64,000 nt of DNA from Patescibacteria group bacterium (GCA_013387205.1 WARV01000008.1:128136-192135); one strand, 5' to 3'; numbered from the stretch's first letter, positions 7,937 through 33,552 are shown. Numbers and translations: made by a program. The notes: generated from the sequence alone by a model not told the origin.

Positions 7937-8057
7937 TATGATACTAATAATGCCAATATTATCCTAAGAACAATCTTTCAAGAGGATTAGTATTATTTGT
8001 ACCATTCGTATGCTTTCGTATATTGGTATCACAATAAAGTAATTTGTCTAGATTTAC

Positions 8058-9005: not shown

Positions 9006-9140
9006 ATTCACTAATATAATTAACCAATCTACGAATCCATACTAATAATAACTAATGACAACTAATTCATACTAAGATAGCATTGGTTGTCATTAGTAAT
9101 ATTCGTTACATTAGTTGATTGGTTAATATTATTCGTTATT

Positions 9141-28803: not shown

Positions 28804-28805
28804 CT

Positions 28806-28888
28806 CGATCCGAATACAACGAATTAATCCGAATCTACGAATACACTACAAATACAGTATTCGTGGTTCATTCGGATAATTCGGATGT
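28806..28888. repeat. degenerate ATCCGAAT/ATTCGGAT repeat cluster
   Basis: cgatccgaatacaacgaattaatccgaatctacgaat...attcgtggttcattcggataattcggatg. Confidence 0.4.
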
Positions 28889-29852: not shown

Positions 29853-31658
29853 CTATTTTTTCTTCTCAATTTCACTCTCCAATTTTTCCACCAACTTCTT
29901 TACTGCCATCACGCCCAAATCTTTCCCTTCCCGGGTGCGCAGTGATAATTTCTTGGACTTAACTTCCTTTTCGCCCAAAATAATCTGGTAAGGGATTTTT
30001 TGCATGGTGGCTTCGCGGATTTTTTTGCCCACAGATTCATCCCTGTCATCAAGTTCAACTCTTAAGTTCGGCAATTCTTCTTTTAGCTTTTTGATCAAGT
30101 CTTTCGCGTATTTGTTCTGCTTCTTGGAAATCGGCAAAACCGCAACCTGGACAGGGGACAGCCATAAAGGAAATGCCCCGGAAAAATGTTCGATAAGAAT
30201 TCCAATAAACCTTTCCAGCGAGCCATAAATCACGCGATGGATGACAACCGGGGTTTTCCTTGCCCCGTCTTTATCGATATATTCCAAACCAAACCTTCTT
30301 GGCTGTTGGAAGTCTAATTGGATTGTACCCATTTGCCACTGCCGGCCTAAGGCATCTTTCATTAAAATGTCGATTTTGGGTCCGTAAAAAGCGCCGTCTC
30401 CTTCTTCAATGAAATAATCCCTGCCGCTTTTTTGCAAAATGCGCTTAAGTGCGGCTTCGGCGCGATTCCAAGTTTCCACATCGCCGATAAAGCTATCCGG
30501 CCTGGTGCCAAGTCGATAGCGGTAATCCAGCTTGAATATGCCGTAGAATTTTTTCGTGATTTTAAATATTTCTTCGTATTCCGATTCAATCTGGTCTTCA
30601 GTCACGTAATTATGGGAGTCATCCTGCCTGAAACTCCTGACGCGGAGCAAACCGTTTAGCGTGCCTGCAAGTTCGTATCTGTGAAGGATATCAGTGTCAG
30701 ATAACCTTAAAGGCAGGTCGCGGTAACTGCGCATTTTAGACCCGAACACCAGCATGGCATTAGGGCAGTTCATGGCCTTAACGCCGTAAACCTCGTTTTC
30801 TCCCATATCACAAATGAACATGTTTTCCTTGTAATGATCCCAATGCCCGGAAGTCTCCCACAATTCTTTTTTGTTGATGAGCGGAGAGGAAATCTCGTGG
30901 TATCCGCGCTCTGCATGCTCCTTACGCCAAAATTCAATAAGTTCGTTTAATACCACCATGCCTTTTGGCAGCCAATACGGCATACCGGGAGAAGTTGGAT
31001 GGAACATGAACAAATCAAGCTGCGGCCCGAGTTTCTTATGGTCGCGCTTTTCCACTTCCTTCAAAAATTCCAAATACTTTTCCAATTCTTGCTTGGTTTC
31101 AAAAGCCAAGCCGTAAATTCTCTGCATCTGCGGATTTTTCTGGTCGCCGCGCCAGTATGCACCCGAGACTTTGTCGAGTTTAAATGCATCGGAGCGGATT
31201 TCCGAGCTATTTTTCACATGCGGTCCTTTGCATAAGTCTACGAACTTACCGCTTCTGTAAATTGATATTGTCGTAGAATTGGGGTCTATATCTGTTGTTA
31301 CTGTTTCGTCCTTAGCTGCCAGTTCTTTTGCGCTAGTCGTGCCATGCTGTTTTAAATTATTTATGAGTTCGACTTTAAAATCCTGGTGCATGTCGGAAAA
31401 CATTTTTATAGCCTGTTCGTTATCAAGCTCCGTCCTGGTGAAATCCATTTTTTCATTGACTAATGCCCTCATCCTTTTTTCAAGTTTAGATAAATCTTCC
31501 GGAGTCAGGGGGCGGGGGAGAAGAAAATCGTAATAGAATCCGTTTTCAATAACCGGGCCGACGCCGAGCTTTGCTTTGGGAAACATCTCCAAAACTGCTG
31601 ATGCTAAGATGTGGGCTAGTGAATGGCGGAGATTATATAAGTGATCCTGTTTGTTCAT
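29853..31658 (-). CDS. thrS: threonine--tRNA ligase (short form without N-terminal TGS domain)
   Basis: second additional domain HxxxH (RHSLAHILASAV), class II core motifs (FRYE-like HRYELAG..., GAFYGPKID), anticodon-binding domain; 601 aa. Confidence 0.95.
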   Translation of the reverse strand: MNKQDHLYNLRHSLAHILASAVLEMFPKAKLGVGPVIENGFYYDFLLPRPLTPEDLSKLEKRMRALVNEKMDFTRTELDNEQAIKMFSDMHQDFKVELINNLKQHGTTSAKELAAKDETVTTDIDPNSTTISIYRSGKFVDLCKGPHVKNSSEIRSDAFKLDKVSGAYWRGDQKNPQMQRIYGLAFETKQELEKYLEFLKEVEKRDHKKLGPQLDLFMFHPTSPGMPYWLPKGMVVLNELIEFWRKEHAERGYHEISSPLINKKELWETSGHWDHYKENMFICDMGENEVYGVKAMNCPNAMLVFGSKMRSYRDLPLRLSDTDILHRYELAGTLNGLLRVRSFRQDDSHNYVTEDQIESEYEEIFKITKKFYGIFKLDYRYRLGTRPDSFIGDVETWNRAEAALKRILQKSGRDYFIEEGDGAFYGPKIDILMKDALGRQWQMGTIQLDFQQPRRFGLEYIDKDGARKTPVVIHRVIYGSLERFIGILIEHFSGAFPLWLSPVQVAVLPISKKQNKYAKDLIKKLKEELPNLRVELDDRDESVGKKIREATMQKIPYQIILGEKEVKSKKLSLRTREGKDLGVMAVKKLVEKLESEIEKKK

Positions 31659-31666
31659 AAATTTTT

Positions 31667-32137
31667 CTACTAAATACTAATATTTACTAATAATACTAAA
31701 CTTAATTTTGTAAATTAATTATCCTTTTATATTTGACTCCTGTTTTTGTAAAATTAGCCAAAATACCTAATTTAATTTTTGCAGTTTTAATATAGTCGTT
31801 AACTTGCTTTATGTTTTTTAACCCAAAATTTTCATTTTTCTTAATCTCTAGTATTATCTTTGCGTCATTAATATCTATCAAAAAGTCAATATAGTATATT
31901 CCGATATATTTGCCTAAATAATATAGTTTTATCGGATATTGCTCAATAAAATTGATACCTGCAAATTTTAATGCCAATGAAACCGCTTTTTGGTAATGCC
32001 TTTCCAGTAATTCTCCACCCAATTCCTTAAAAACTTGATATAAAATCCCAATTATTTTATAGCACTCGTCTTTATAAATAAGATCTTTACGGTGCATTTA
32101 TTTTTAGTACTTTTAGTAAATTTTAGTATTTAGTAGT
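31667..32137. mobile_element. ~471-bp unit: GxxExxY-family gene bounded by 33-bp imperfect terminal inverted repeats
   Basis: left ctactaaatactaatatttactaataatact (31667..31700) vs reverse complement of right agtacttttagtaaattttagtatttagtag (32106..32136), ~30/33 match; extremely AT-rich. Confidence 0.55.
31702..32097 (-). CDS. GxxExxY-family protein (PD-(D/E)XK nuclease-like fold)
   Basis: ECYKIIGILYQVFKELGGELLERHYQKA N-terminal signature resembling TIGR04256 GxxExxY; 131 aa. Confidence 0.6.
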   Translation of the reverse strand: MHRKDLIYKDECYKIIGILYQVFKELGGELLERHYQKAVSLALKFAGINFIEQYPIKLYYLGKYIGIYYIDFLIDINDAKIILEIKKNENFGLKNIKQVNDYIKTAKIKLGILANFTKTGVKYKRIINLQN

Positions 32138-32262
32138 AAACAAAAATACAAAACCCCAGAATTCAACCGCCGATGAAATCAGCGACTAAATTCTGGGGTC
32201 CTGGCGAACATTTCGCTTGTTAAAGCAAAAAATTCGAAGCCAAGACGTTTCCGTCCCAGACT

Positions 32263-32554
32263 CCCCGCCCTTCAGATTGCATTCAAAGACTAAACTTTAA
32301 TCTCTTTCTCAGCTGGCTCCATGAACTACCGTATTGTTTCAGCTTTCTTTCCCGAATCTTTGCGTCTCGGGATTCAGCAAATGCCTCGTAATACACTAAT
32401 CGATAGGGAGCATATGCTTTGGTAGATTGGACTTTGAATGCATTATGTTCAGAAAATCTTTGTTTAAGATCGGTTGATTCACCGATATACGTATAGTCTT
32501 CTTTTAGACTTTTGATTACGTAAACATAATGCATATGCAATCTGAAGAGCGGGG
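32263..32554. mobile_element. ~290-bp unit: GIY-YIG gene bounded by 17-bp terminal inverted repeats CCCCGCYCTTCAGATTG / CAATCTGAAGRGCGGGG
   Basis: ccccgcccttcagattg at 32263..32279 and caatctgaagagcgggg at 32538..32554 (16/17 complementary). Confidence 0.5.
32283..32534 (-). CDS. GIY-YIG nuclease-domain protein
   Basis: YVYVIKS...YIGESTDLKQRFSEHN GIY-YIG motif; ~84 aa; start taken at ATG 32534 (track uses TTG 32540). Confidence 0.75.
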   Translation of the reverse strand: MHYVYVIKSLKEDYTYIGESTDLKQRFSEHNAFKVQSTKAYAPYRLVYYEAFAESRDAKIRERKLKQYGSSWSQLRKRLKFSL

Positions 32555-32738
32555 CTTTTTATCCGGTATTCCTCTAGAAAATACCAGACTATTTCTTTAT
32601 TTGTTTCAAACTCCCCGGTTGGTAGCCGGATCAAAGCTTGAAGAACTGAAATTATTATAACACAATTTTAAGATAGTTCAATATCAGTTTTCCACAATAG
32701 ATTTTTGGCTTAAATAAGCCAATAATAACCATATACTA

Positions 32739-32767: not shown

Positions 32768-32802
32768 TACGCCACGTATTATATTCCATAGGAGGAAACA
32801 AA

Positions 32803-32892
32803 ATGCGACTCTTCAACGGACCGCCCACGCAGTCCAACTTCACTCACAATTACTTTTCCTTGGCTTCCACGTCCGAGTCCGCGAAAAACTGA
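32803..32892 (+). CDS. 29-codon ORF with strong SD at 5' end of GC-rich transcript (MRLFNGPPTQSNFTHNYFSLASTSESAKN)
   Basis: aggagga 7 nt upstream of ATG 32803; TGA stop 32890..32892. Confidence 0.3.
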   Translation: MRLFNGPPTQSNFTHNYFSLASTSESAKN

Positions 32893-33410
32893 CCGCCGGC
32901 GCCGGCCGCGAACCAGTTGAGCAGTGATCGAAAGGAGAAAGATGGACAACTGGCATCCTACCGGTTTTACCTAGACACTGCTGCAGTCGGCAGTGTCAAC
33001 CAAGAACCCTCTTGCCGGGCAATTTCCTGCCCGCCGGCCCGCCCGCGAAAATTTCACGGCTGCGCGGCTACAAGCCTGGCAATACAAACGGGGCGACGGC
33101 CTGAGACCTTATGGTCAATACTTTGGCCGCCTGCCAATACATCGTTCCATCGTTGATGTTGTTGTTACGCCAGCGAGCGGCGACAGGACATGCGATTAGA
33201 CCAGAAAGTTTTGGCTCGGTACCGCACCTGCGCGCGCCATCATCCCCATGGGGATGATGGCATTGGGCTGGCGTTGGGCAGCGCGGGAGATATCCCTAAC
33301 ATTGCTGCCCAGAGTGGTACCCGCTATCTAGCGGGGATGTGTAGTACGCGGGGCCGCACCCCCGCGAAAGACGCCGGCCGGCGCATAAAACCCGCGCCGG
33401 CCCCAACAAA

Positions 33411-33449
33411 AGCCCCTAGGACCTAAAAATCCTGGGGGCTATTTATTTT
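33411..33449 (+). terminator. rho-independent terminator ending the GC-rich unit
   Basis: agcccctaggacctaaaaatcctgggggct (11-bp stem incl. one G-U) + atttatttt. Confidence 0.6.
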
Positions 33450-33552
33450 GTCATTGCGAGCGACTGAAAGGAGCGCGGCAATCTGTACATCAAGAGATTG
33501 CTTCCACCTTCGCTAAAGCTACGGCGGACAAGTCGGATGCACTCGTGATGAC
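33450..33552. repeat. GTCATTGCGAG-family repeat, copy 3
   Basis: gtcattgcgagcgactgaaaggagcgcggcaatc ... gagattgcttc...tcggatgcactcgtgatgac. Confidence 0.65.

What the first reader, a model, noticed from the sequence alone, without database searches (positions are those of the whole stretch)
31667..32137. GxxExxY (PD-(D/E)XK-like) gene as a self-contained unit flanked by 33-bp terminal inverted repeats
A 131-aa GxxExxY-family gene (31702..32097) is bracketed, with no spare sequence, by imperfect inverted repeats. The left repeat is ctactaaatactaatatttactaataatact; the right repeat, reverse-complemented, is ctactaaatactaaaatttactaaaagtact (~30/33 match). The unit is extremely AT-rich and sits between thrS and another small nuclease gene. 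GxxExxY proteins are known to turn up in odd places such as rRNA intervening sequences, but a TIR-bounded single-gene cassette of ~470 bp is not a described element type. It suggests a minimal mobile or homing unit whose only cargo is a small nuclease-fold protein.
Basis: partly seen in the sequence, partly recalled or inferred. Interest (0 to 1): 0.75.

Follow-up and report, generated by a model that had tools for sequence, protein, structure and literature searches.

The report
Small nuclease gene inside repeat palindrome
A tiny nuclease gene sits exactly at the tip of a palindrome built from repeated 7-base words, and the same palindrome, usually without the gene, is scattered between genes in many ultra-small bacteria and in Bacteroidota. 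This points to an undescribed repeat-plus-enzyme system that resembles the known REP/RAYT elements but uses a different kind of enzyme.

Summary
A 131-aa PF13366/TIGR04256 (GxxExxY) PD-(D/E)XK nuclease gene (31702-32097, minus strand) is bracketed, with 1-5 nt to spare, by 43-nt inverted repeats (86% complementary; 33-nt core 30/33). This is not AT-rich noise. Each arm is an array of four TACTAAA/T heptamers.

- **Family-wide:** the same layout (4 x TACNAAW per arm, outer ends C|TAC...GTA|G) flanks 66 of 80 homologues (43-75% identity). Remoter members, including cultured Flavobacterium, use variant heptamers.
- **Recognition, not pairing:** heptamer variants follow the protein paralogue, not the host genome. 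Variable positions show no base-pair covariation.
- **Gene-less copies:** the same palindromes occur without the gene about 13 times more often, at stop-start junctions about 9 nt upstream of start codons.
- **Orthologous thrS site:** relatives are empty (L326), carry a gene-less palindrome (L325), or carry the gene-bearing unit (window, L002).
- **Not a young transposon:** the gene stays syntenic over deep divergence, is under strong purifying selection (dN/dS 0.05-0.17), and was nearly absent from the plasmid and phage collections.

Best reading: this is the protein-coding member of a dispersed palindromic-repeat family whose cognate enzyme is a PD-(D/E)XK nuclease. That makes it REPIN/RAYT-like with a different enzyme, and I found no description of it in the searchable literature. 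How it spreads is inferred, not shown.

The parts
32098..32140 (-). Upstream (5') arm of the unit: four TACTAAA heptamers (plus-strand TTAGTA at 32104, 32113, 32123, 32130). The outer end reads C|TAC. The innermost heptamer ends 5 nt before the ATG.
   Evidence: (I1)
31702..32097 (-). 131-aa GxxExxY / PDDEXK_3 nuclease ORF at the apex of the palindrome. The invariant residues E32, Y35, D71, E84, K86, Q98 and Y102 are all present.
31663..31705 (-). Downstream (3') arm: four TACTAAA/T heptamers in inverted orientation (plus-strand TACTAA at 31668, 31675, 31685, 31694). It starts 1 nt after the stop codon. Its outer GTA|G lies 9 nt before the thrS ATG.
29853..31658 (-). thrS, the co-oriented downstream gene. 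Its start codon follows the unit directly. This is context, not part of the unit.
32153..32199 (-). A 20-bp intrinsic-terminator hairpin plus T-run, the 3' end of a conserved thrS leader RNA. The unit is inserted between this terminator and the thrS ATG.
7939..8030 (.). Gene-less, partly decayed member of the same palindrome family, between the serS stop (7936) and the next ATG (8058). The right arm 7986-8028 has five heptamers. The left arm keeps only the outer heptamer.
   Evidence: nhmmer E = 1.5e-4
28804..28862 (.). Degenerate heptamer palindrome in the adk-map intergenic gap (CCGAAT/TACGAAT/TACAAAT ... ATTCGT/ATTCGG). A weak match.
   Evidence: nhmmer E = 0.03
9006..9086 (.). Degenerate run of ACTAAT/TACGAAT heptamers with a partial inverted partner, in an intergenic gap. 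A weak match.
   Evidence: nhmmer E = 0.1

Best explanation
The 478-bp unit is the gene-bearing member of a family of dispersed intergenic palindromes. Each arm is an array of four TACNAAW heptamers, and the outer ends read C|TAC...GTA|G.

The GxxExxY protein is a small, probably dimeric, catalytically intact PD-(D/E)XK nuclease of the RecB/Cas4-like kind. It is encoded exactly where gene-less copies have their loop, and I take it to be the family's cognate enzyme. On this reading it recognises the heptamer arrays sequence-specifically and cuts at or near the palindrome. That would create, maintain or copy palindromes at stop-start junctions, in the way RAYT transposases are thought to serve REP/REPIN repeats.

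The gene itself is long-lived, vertically inherited, and expressed by read-through from the host operon. Here that means transcription from the thrS leader, through its terminator, into the nuclease gene and then thrS.

**Shown:** the unit architecture, its family-wide conservation, the existence and excess of gene-less copies, filled/gene-less/empty states at one orthologous site, paralogue-specific heptamers, lack of pairing covariation, and purifying selection.

**Inferred:** that the protein binds the heptamers, that it cleaves there, and that this drives spread.
For: 1. **Association.** 66 of 80 homologous loci (43-75% identity; CPR, Bacteroidota and others) have the gene bracketed by inverted 4 x TACNAAW arrays, z = 5-25 against shuffles. 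Remoter members (35-40% identity) have the same layout with variant heptamers: Flavobacterium CGCTAAT, L331 CACNAAA, L329 CGCGAAA.
2. **Sequence recognition rather than pairing.**
   - Heptamer core positions are about 98% identical between arms. This figure is inflated, because positions were labelled by matching the motif.
   - Identity at the variable 4th position is the same for facing heptamers (0.74) and non-facing heptamers (0.76).
   - The central spacers are no more alike than spacers from unrelated elements (0.23-0.36 against 0.33).
   - Of 314 arm mismatches, 55 would be G.U on the sense strand and 46 on the antisense strand. That is no wobble excess.
3. **Unit-specific heptamers.** Identical heptamers make up 0.53 of pairs within a unit and 0.15 between units. 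Paralogues in one genome use different variants: L007 TACTAAA against L015 TACGAAC, L059 TACAAAT against L077 TACGAAA.
4. **Gene-less copies.** Loci sampled by arm pattern hold 51 gene-less palindromes and 4 gene-bearing units. The same pattern in viral contigs gives 1 palindrome and 156 solo hits, so the inverted pair is the real entity. Three copies within 3.4 kb of L107 share idiosyncratic spacers.
5. **Presence/absence at orthologous junctions.**
   - thrS site: empty (L326), gene-less (L325), gene-bearing (window, L002).
   - X-Y junction: gene-bearing in L041 and L057, gene-less in L037.
   - S12-S7 junction: a palindrome only in L063.
7. **The analogy.** RAYT genes flanked by inverted REPs or long TIRs, with dispersed gene-less copies, are described (PMC3116915, PMC3733652).
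Against: - No biochemical evidence links the protein to the heptamers. Co-variation of arms and protein could partly reflect joint inheritance plus local gene conversion.
- A 131-aa PD-(D/E)XK nuclease can cut but has no known strand-transfer chemistry, so a transposition mechanism is not evident.
- No target-site duplication or near-identical copies were seen.
- Cassettes are syntenic over deep divergence, so any mobility is rare.
- The gene-less palindrome at the orthologous thrS site (L325) uses TACGAAT, not the window's TACTAAA. It is therefore not a simple deletion derivative.
- Copy number per genome could not be measured. The 64-kb window has one clear further member and two degenerate ones.
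- 14 of the 80 homologues lack a convincing inverted pair.
- The palindromes sit in transcribed operon spacers, so an RNA-level role cannot be excluded.
Confidence: 0.5

Rival explanations
1. A homing-type selfish gene. On this reading the heptamer palindromes are an independent element, host-encoded or otherwise mobilised. The GxxExxY nuclease only targets the centre of gene-less palindromes. It cuts there and is copied in by repair from a gene-bearing copy, using the roughly 35-nt arms as homology.
For: - The gene always lies exactly where gene-less copies have their loop, with 0-9 nt to spare.
- The same junction can be gene-less or gene-bearing.
- A dimeric PD-(D/E)XK nuclease suits a symmetric target.
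- Arms and nuclease co-vary, as expected for a homing enzyme and its site.
Against: - Cassettes are syntenic and under purifying selection over long times. Homing genes are expected instead to cycle through invasion, decay and loss.
- Only 4 of 55 palindromes are occupied.
- The homology arms are very short.
- The gene is co-oriented with the downstream gene in 53 of 63 cases. A symmetric target would not impose this without selection.
- The L325 palindrome at the thrS site has a different heptamer variant from the window unit.
Confidence: 0.2
2. An RNA-level element. On this reading the two arms pair in the polycistronic transcript to form a long stem that is processed, for example by RNase III, as in 23S rRNA intervening sequences. 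The stem could also mask the downstream ribosome-binding region. The protein would be a passenger that has nothing to do with the arms.
For: - Palindromes lie in operon spacers between co-directional genes (22 of 28 resolved cases), with the outer end a median 9 nt from the downstream ATG.
- The window unit lies in the thrS 5' untranslated region, downstream of a leader terminator, so it must be co-transcribed.
- IVS elements with an ORF are excised by RNase III (PMC4990558).
Against: - Variable positions and spacers show no compensatory change and no G.U bias on the sense strand.
- The heptamer sequence itself is conserved from CPR to Bacteroidota, which pairing alone does not require.
- Heptamer variants follow the protein paralogue within one genome.
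- The protein is a conserved, catalytically intact nuclease, not a decaying passenger. This contrasts with the Coxiella S23p ORF, which is degenerating.
Confidence: 0.15
3. A classical autonomous insertion sequence whose transposase is the GxxExxY nuclease, with the gene-less palindromes as its MITEs.
For: - Terminal inverted repeats with multiple sub-terminal binding-site-like repeats.
- Gene-less derivatives that are more abundant than the full element.
- Variable presence at orthologous sites.
Against: - No DDE, HUH, serine or tyrosine recombinase domain is present. The only other Pfam hit is a sub-threshold match to TnsA_N, 17.5 bits against a cut-off of 26.5.
- No target-site duplication was seen.
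- Same-genome paralogues are only 48-64% identical.
- Positions are conserved over deep divergence.
- One weak plasmid hit in 72,556 records and none in 50,697 phage records.
Confidence: 0.07
4. A chance similarity of AT-rich low-complexity flanks around an ordinary small gene.
For: The region is 24% G+C.
Against: - 0 of 100 shuffles reproduce the match.
- z = 19 against shuffled flanks.
- The same architecture occurs in 66 of 80 homologous loci, and with variant heptamers in four further, more distant loci (L201, L203, L329, L331).
Confidence: 0.01

Closest known systems
REPIN/RAYT systems, 'REPtrons' and 'TIRtrons' (Bertels & Rainey 2011, PMC3116915; Di Nocera et al. 2013, PMC3733652)
   Same: - A single enzyme gene is flanked by inverted copies of a repeat that is also dispersed, mostly gene-less and as inverted doublets, in extragenic space.
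- The repeats lie mainly between co-directional genes and are probably transcribed.
- The enzyme gene is probably expressed by read-through.
- The outer ends here read GTAG, the tag of one REP super-family.
- The enzyme gene is vertically inherited and conserved rather than multi-copy.
   Different: - The enzyme is a 131-aa PD-(D/E)XK nuclease, not an HUH tyrosine transposase.
- The repeat is not a 20-40-bp G+C-rich self-complementary REP. It is an AT-rich array of four direct heptamers per arm.
- Several diverged paralogous units can coexist in one genome, each with its own heptamer variant.
- The hosts are CPR/Patescibacteria and Bacteroidota.
- Copy number per genome is unknown.
Insertion sequences and their MITEs (terminal-inverted-repeat elements; review PMC3184786, seen only as an abstract)
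   Same: - Terminal inverted repeats bound a single gene.
- Shorter gene-less derivatives that keep the repeats are more numerous.
- Occupancy of orthologous intergenic sites varies.
   Different: - No recognised transposase chemistry.
- No target-site duplication detected.
- No near-identical copies.
- Long-term synteny and purifying selection.
- The gene-less form has essentially no internal sequence: the arms are 0-66 nt apart.
23S rRNA intervening sequences that carry an ORF (e.g. Coxiella burnetii IVS, PMC4990558)
   Same: A unit of about 430-480 nt made of one small ORF closed by complementary flanks, inserted in a transcribed, non-coding context and maintained vertically after acquisition.
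   Different: - This unit is not in rRNA. Rfam finds only four tRNAs in the window.
- The ORF family differs: S23p there, PD-(D/E)XK here.
- The Coxiella ORF is decaying, whereas this one is under strong purifying selection.
- The flanks here are sequence-conserved heptamer arrays without pairing covariation.
Free-standing or intron-borne homing endonuclease genes (established knowledge)
   Same: A small nuclease gene found at a precise position inside a recognisable target sequence, with occupied and unoccupied versions of the same site among relatives.
   Different: - The 'target' is itself a dispersed repeat with many copies.
- Occupancy is low (4 of 55).
- The gene is stable and conserved rather than cycling.
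- No intron or intein is involved.

Membership tests
PF13366 PDDEXK_3 / TIGR04256 GxxExxY protein | Scores above the curated cut-offs of both family models | tested here: met
   PF13366: 86.5 bits (cut-off 22). TIGR04256: 80.6 bits (cut-off 35)..
PF13366 PDDEXK_3 / TIGR04256 GxxExxY protein | PD-(D/E)XK fold with the catalytic D ... E-x-K residues | tested here: met
REPtron / REPIN-RAYT system | The enzyme is a RAYT (HUH/Y1 transposase of the IS200/IS605 group) | tested here: not met
   Pfam and NCBIfam report only PDDEXK_3 / GxxExxY for the ORF.
REPtron / REPIN-RAYT system | The enzyme gene is flanked by inverted copies of a repeat that is also dispersed gene-less as inverted doublets | tested here: met
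   (flanks). (51 gene-less palindromes, with a viral control). (a further member in the window).
REPtron / REPIN-RAYT system | The repeat unit is a short G+C-rich self-complementary REP hairpin tagged by GTAG | tested here: not met
   The outer ends do read GTAG/CTAC. However, each arm is an AT-rich array of four direct heptamers, not a self-complementary REP.
REPtron / REPIN-RAYT system | Tens to hundreds of repeat copies per genome that co-occur with the enzyme gene | not testable with these tools
   Only 64 kb of the source genome and pieces of up to 15 kb of other genomes could be read.
Insertion sequence / MITE | Terminal inverted repeats bounding the element | tested here: met
Insertion sequence / MITE | Encodes a recognised transposase (DDE, HUH, serine or tyrosine recombinase) | tested here: not met
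   The only other hit, to TnsA_N, is below cut-off (17.5 bits against 26.5).
Insertion sequence / MITE | Target-site duplication at the ends | tested here: inconclusive
   None is visible in the filled-versus-empty comparisons. Those relatives are too diverged to fix the exact boundaries.
Insertion sequence / MITE | Several near-identical copies within a genome | tested here: not met
   Same-genome paralogues are 48-64% identical. Whole genomes were not available.
23S rRNA intervening sequence with ORF | Located inside a 23S rRNA helix | tested here: not met
   There is no rRNA in the window. The unit lies between a thrS leader terminator and the thrS ATG.
23S rRNA intervening sequence with ORF | The flanks form a stem maintained by base pairing (an RNase III substrate) | tested here: inconclusive
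   The arms are complementary through their shared heptamers. Variable positions and spacers show no compensatory change. Processing cannot be tested with these tools.
Homing endonuclease gene | Occupied and unoccupied versions of the same site among relatives | tested here: met
   thrS site: L326 empty, L325 gene-less palindrome, window and L002 occupied. X-Y junction: L037 against L041 and L057.
Homing endonuclease gene | The enzyme cleaves the unoccupied site | not testable with these tools
   Needs biochemistry.

The most novel reading that the evidence does not exclude
GxxExxY (PF13366) nucleases and the TACNAAW-type heptamer palindromes form a second, RAYT-independent repeat-plus-enzyme system. 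In it, a domesticated PD-(D/E)XK nuclease, each paralogue matched to its own heptamer variant, generates and maintains a genome-wide population of intergenic hairpin elements placed about 9 nt upstream of start codons in CPR/Patescibacteria, Bacteroidota and other phyla. This would give a function to a family of more than 18,000 sequence clusters that currently has none.
Probability: 0.35. Interest if true: 0.85.

Novelty: new variant of a known kind. Interest (0 to 1): 0.78.

Why it matters
PF13366/TIGR04256 is a large family: 18,285 clusters at 50% identity match the profile at E <= 1e-3. The searchable literature gives it no function.

Showing that its members are systematically embedded at the apex of a conserved heptamer palindrome, and that gene-less copies populate operon spacers, gives a concrete and testable hypothesis for the family. 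It also identifies a previously unnoticed class of repeated intergenic element in streamlined CPR genomes.

The finding extends the REPIN/RAYT idea, a vertically inherited enzyme tied to a population of short palindromic repeats, to a different enzyme fold.

The same architecture occurs in cultured Flavobacterium, so binding and cleavage can be tested directly.

The elements sit just upstream of start codons of essential genes: thrS, the rpsG-fusA junction, and other conserved housekeeping neighbours. They may therefore affect expression of core genes.

Tried and rejected
- **Solved structures by sequence:** no relative found. The fold search was needed instead.
- **Rfam:** no family covers the arms or the region, at gathering or E-value thresholds.
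- **Literature searches** for GxxExxY, PF13366, TIGR04256 and the heptamer strings returned nothing relevant.
- **Exact-protein look-up** of the window's own product found no record.
- **Shine-Dalgarno idea:** I considered that the outer GTAG(G/A) end supplies a ribosome-binding sequence to the downstream gene. Only 8 of 53 cassettes and 11 of 44 palindrome ends have a purine-rich tetramer there, so I dropped it as a general claim.
- **Promoter idea:** the sigma-70 consensus scan finds no site in the arms, only weak AT-rich matches inside the ORF. The conserved thrS leader with its own promoter-like site explains transcription better.
- **Solo arms:** 'solo' arrays are at the level of the viral control, so I treat them as mostly chance matches to a degenerate pattern.
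- **GIY-YIG comparison:** the neighbouring GIY-YIG gene also has a flanking inverted repeat, but this is not a family feature. Only 1 of 5 other GIY-YIG loci shows even a weak one. It instead reflects insertion into a leader-RNA hairpin.
- **Target-site duplication:** none recognisable.
- **Phage or plasmid carriage:** essentially none.
- **Other cargo between arms:** rare. The apparent cases L086 and L185 look like unrelated neighbouring arrays.

Full report
**1. The observation**

The window has a 43-nt inverted repeat, 31663-31705 and 32098-32140, that is 86% complementary. The 33-nt core matches only at these two places in 64 kb. None of 100 dinucleotide shuffles produced a match. The flank-to-flank alignment scores 56, against a maximum of 21 for shuffled flanks.

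The repeat brackets a 131-aa ORF (31702-32097, minus strand). The ORF scores well above cut-off on PF13366 PDDEXK_3 and on TIGR04256 GxxExxY. Only 5 nt separate the inner heptamer from the ATG, and 1 nt separates the stop codon from the other arm.

The unit is 24% G+C in a 42% window. Each arm consists of four TACTAA(A/T) heptamers spaced 7/10/9 nt.

**2. The protein**

E32, Y35, D71, E84, K86, Q98 and Y102 are invariant. This gives the E / D / ExK / QxxxY pattern of RecB/Cas4-like PD-(D/E)XK nucleases. That assignment rests on established knowledge of the superfamily.

The profile finds 18,285 representative clusters at E <= 1e-3. Many of them are proteins of about 265 aa with two tandem copies of the domain, which suggests that single-domain members act as dimers.

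**3. The repeat is a family-wide feature, not local noise**

A genome scan returned 80 loci that encode homologues at 43-75% identity. They come mostly from CPR/Patescibacteria, with some from Bacteroidota and a Planctomycetota bin.

In 66 of them the flanks align as inverted repeats at z >= 5. When anchored on the motif, the arms have a common plan:

- the outer base is C;
- then come four TAC-N-AA-W heptamers at spacings of about 7-8, 10-11 and 8-9 nt;
- the inner end lies 0-9 nt from the ATG on one side and 0-3 nt from the stop codon on the other.

More distant members keep the plan with other heptamers:

- two cultured Flavobacterium genomes use TACCGCTAATTCGCTAA / TTAGCGAATTCGCGGTA;
- L331 uses CACGAAA/CACAAAA (31 nt, 90% complementary);
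- L329 uses CGCGAAA/CACGAAA.

**4. What is conserved is the word, not the pairing**

- Heptamer core positions are nearly identical between arms (with ascertainment bias).
- The free 4th base agrees as often between non-facing heptamers (0.76) as between facing ones (0.74).
- The central spacers of the two arms are no more alike than spacers from unrelated elements (0.23-0.36 against 0.33).
- Of 314 mismatches between arms, 55 would be G.U in the sense RNA, 46 in the antisense RNA, and 213 are transversions. That is the chance expectation.

So there is no sign of selection for an extended base-paired stem beyond what identical words give. A sequence-specific reader of the heptamers is implied.

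**5.

Heptamers are homogeneous within a unit and differ between units. Identical heptamers make up 0.53 of pairs within a unit and 0.15 between units.

All 11 loci whose protein is at least 60% identical to the window's use TACTAAA. Paralogous units in the same genome use different variants: L007 TACTAAA against L015 TACGAAC, L059 TACAAAT against L077 TACGAAA, L023 TACGAAA against L067 TACNAAT.

The variant therefore follows the protein, not the host. This step is an inference, because joint inheritance with local homogenisation could contribute.

**6. Gene-less copies**

Within the gene-sampled loci, back-to-back arrays without a gene already appeared in intergenic gaps.

I then scanned metagenome contigs for the arm pattern alone. 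This gave 120 loci (0.74 Mb) holding 51 gene-less palindromes, with inner ends 0-66 nt apart, and 4 gene-bearing units: L117, L119, L123 and L180.

The same pattern in viral contigs (1.17 Mb) gave 156 solo arrays and 1 palindrome. The inverted pair is therefore the real entity, and solo hits are mostly chance.

L107 has three palindromes in 3.4 kb that share idiosyncratic, non-complementary spacers. That is what copies of one ancestor would look like.

The window itself holds a further member (right arm 7986-8028, nhmmer E = 1.5e-4) and two degenerate ones (28804-28862 and 9006-9086).

**7. Position**

Gene-less palindromes lie mostly between co-directional genes (22 of 28 cases with both sides resolved). 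The outer end is a median 9 nt from the downstream start codon and a median 8 nt, more variable, from the upstream stop codon.

In 53 of 63 gene-bearing units an ATG follows the downstream arm within 3-17 nt, so the nuclease gene is co-oriented with the next gene.

**8. Synteny, selection and turnover**

The units are positionally stable.

- The window and L002 share dnaE - leader - unit - thrS - map - adk. Their ThrRS is 66% identical and their GxxExxY protein is 72% identical.
- Eight loci share another site.
- L062, L063 and L070 share the rpsG-fusA junction.

Selection on the gene is strongly purifying.

| Pair | dN/dS |
|---|---|
| L004 / L006 | 0.05 |
| L041 / L057 | 0.10 |
| L063 / L070 | 0.17 |

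For the window against L002, dN is 0.18, lower than the 0.27 of the adjacent thrS. dS is saturated for that pair.

Occupancy nevertheless varies.

| Site | State in each locus |
|---|---|
| Between the thrS leader terminator and the thrS ATG | L326: 27 nt, empty. L325: a 4+4 TACGAAT gene-less palindrome. L324 and L327: other sequence. Window and L002: the gene-bearing TACTAAA unit. |
| 'X-Y' junction | L041 and L057: gene-bearing. L037: gene-less. L043: partial. L020: empty. |
| S12-S7 junction | A palindrome only in L063. |

No target-site duplication was recognisable. tblastn with the window protein finds one weak plasmid hit in 72,556 records and none in 50,697 phage records.

**9. Interpretation**

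It does not behave like a young transposon. It behaves like a long-resident, selected gene tied to a population of short palindromes.

The closest described systems are REPINs with their RAYT transposases, and the 'REPtrons/TIRtrons' of Di Nocera et al. In those, a single enzyme gene is flanked by inverted copies of a dispersed repeat, is probably expressed by read-through, and some repeat families end in GTAG (PMC3116915, PMC3733652).

Membership fails on the defining enzyme, which there is an HUH tyrosine transposase, and on the repeat type, which there is a G+C-rich REP hairpin. I therefore file this as working like a REPtron without being one.

How a PD-(D/E)XK nuclease alone would spread palindromes is unknown. 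Options are cut-and-repair copying, homing of the gene into gene-less copies, or processing of hairpins in single-stranded DNA. An RNA-level role, such as stem processing as in rRNA intervening sequences (PMC4990558), is not excluded. It is disfavoured by sections 4 and 5.

**10. Context of the window unit**

Upstream of the unit lies a conserved leader RNA that ends in a 20-bp terminator (32199-32153). The unit is inserted between that terminator and the thrS ATG.

The nuclease gene and thrS are therefore most simply transcribed together from the leader's promoter-like site (32681-32654), after read-through of the terminator. This is an inference.

**11. Novelty and score**

No paper in the held library describes the flanks, the heptamers or a function for GxxExxY proteins. 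The kind of system is known. The enzyme fold, the repeat architecture and the host range are new, so I rate it a new variant of a known kind.

Interest is high, for three reasons. It assigns a testable role to a very large family of unknown function. It reveals a repeat class in streamlined CPR genomes. It can be tested in cultured Flavobacterium.

Noticed in passing
window 32141-32650 (minus strand); also L002 2733-2965 and L324-L328 upstream of thrS: A conserved structured leader RNA lies upstream of thrS. Its parts, in order:
- a promoter-like TTGAAC-16-TATAAT (32681-32654);
- the block AGTTCTTCAA;
- a CCGG/CCGG hairpin whose 7-nt loop CUACCAA displays ACC, a Thr codon that is complementary to the tRNA-Thr(GGU) anticodon loop;
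- the block TTCTAGAG;
- a GACG-GAAA-CGUC hairpin;
- a 20-bp terminator plus T-run.

13 of 46 predicted pairs show compensatory changes in six orthologues. No Rfam family matches, and the T-box model does not hit at E <= 1. It looks like a T-box-like, tRNA-sensing attenuator that has not been catalogued.
   Followed up: partly
window 32263-32554 (ORF 32283-32540, minus strand; inverted repeat 32263-32282 / 32535-32554): An 85-aa GIY-YIG nuclease ORF sits inside the variable hairpin of that thrS leader, closed by a 20-nt, 95% complementary inverted repeat. Orthologous leaders have only a short hairpin, or none, at this position. This looks like an IVS-like insertion of a nuclease ORF into a structured RNA. 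Other GIY-YIG homologues in the fetched loci do not show such a flanking repeat.
   Followed up: partly
window 32800-33500 (extending to about 34116): An ORF-poor stretch of about 700 nt at 55-65% G+C, in a 42% G+C window, between dnaE and the thrS leader. It has no Rfam match and is not conserved in the orthologous loci. L326 has nothing there. Its nature is unknown.
   Followed up: partly
L324 2364-2490 (upstream of thrS): At the same site where the window has the unit, L324 carries a stretch of about 130 nt. It has inverted runs of a different A-rich word (GCAAA/TCAAAATGC ... GCATTTTGA) around a G+C-rich central hairpin. This may be a related or decayed palindrome family.
   Followed up: no
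L045 3094-3166 and L047 260-337: Composite elements. A G+C-rich hairpin whose loop holds two TACGAAT heptamers is followed by one more heptamer and then a four-heptamer inverted arm. The whole lies directly between a stop codon and the next ATG. This is a variant architecture of the gene-less palindrome.
   Followed up: no
protein library, e.g. P0243, P0244, P0255: Many proteins of about 260-275 aa consist of two tandem GxxExxY domains. A few longer proteins carry the domain fused to other regions. These were not examined further.
   Followed up: no
L325 4388-4759: In one thrS orthologue, a different small endonuclease-type ORF (DUF559 / MTES_1575, 123 aa) sits immediately downstream of thrS. 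Small nuclease ORFs of several folds seem to accumulate around this locus in these genomes.
   Followed up: no
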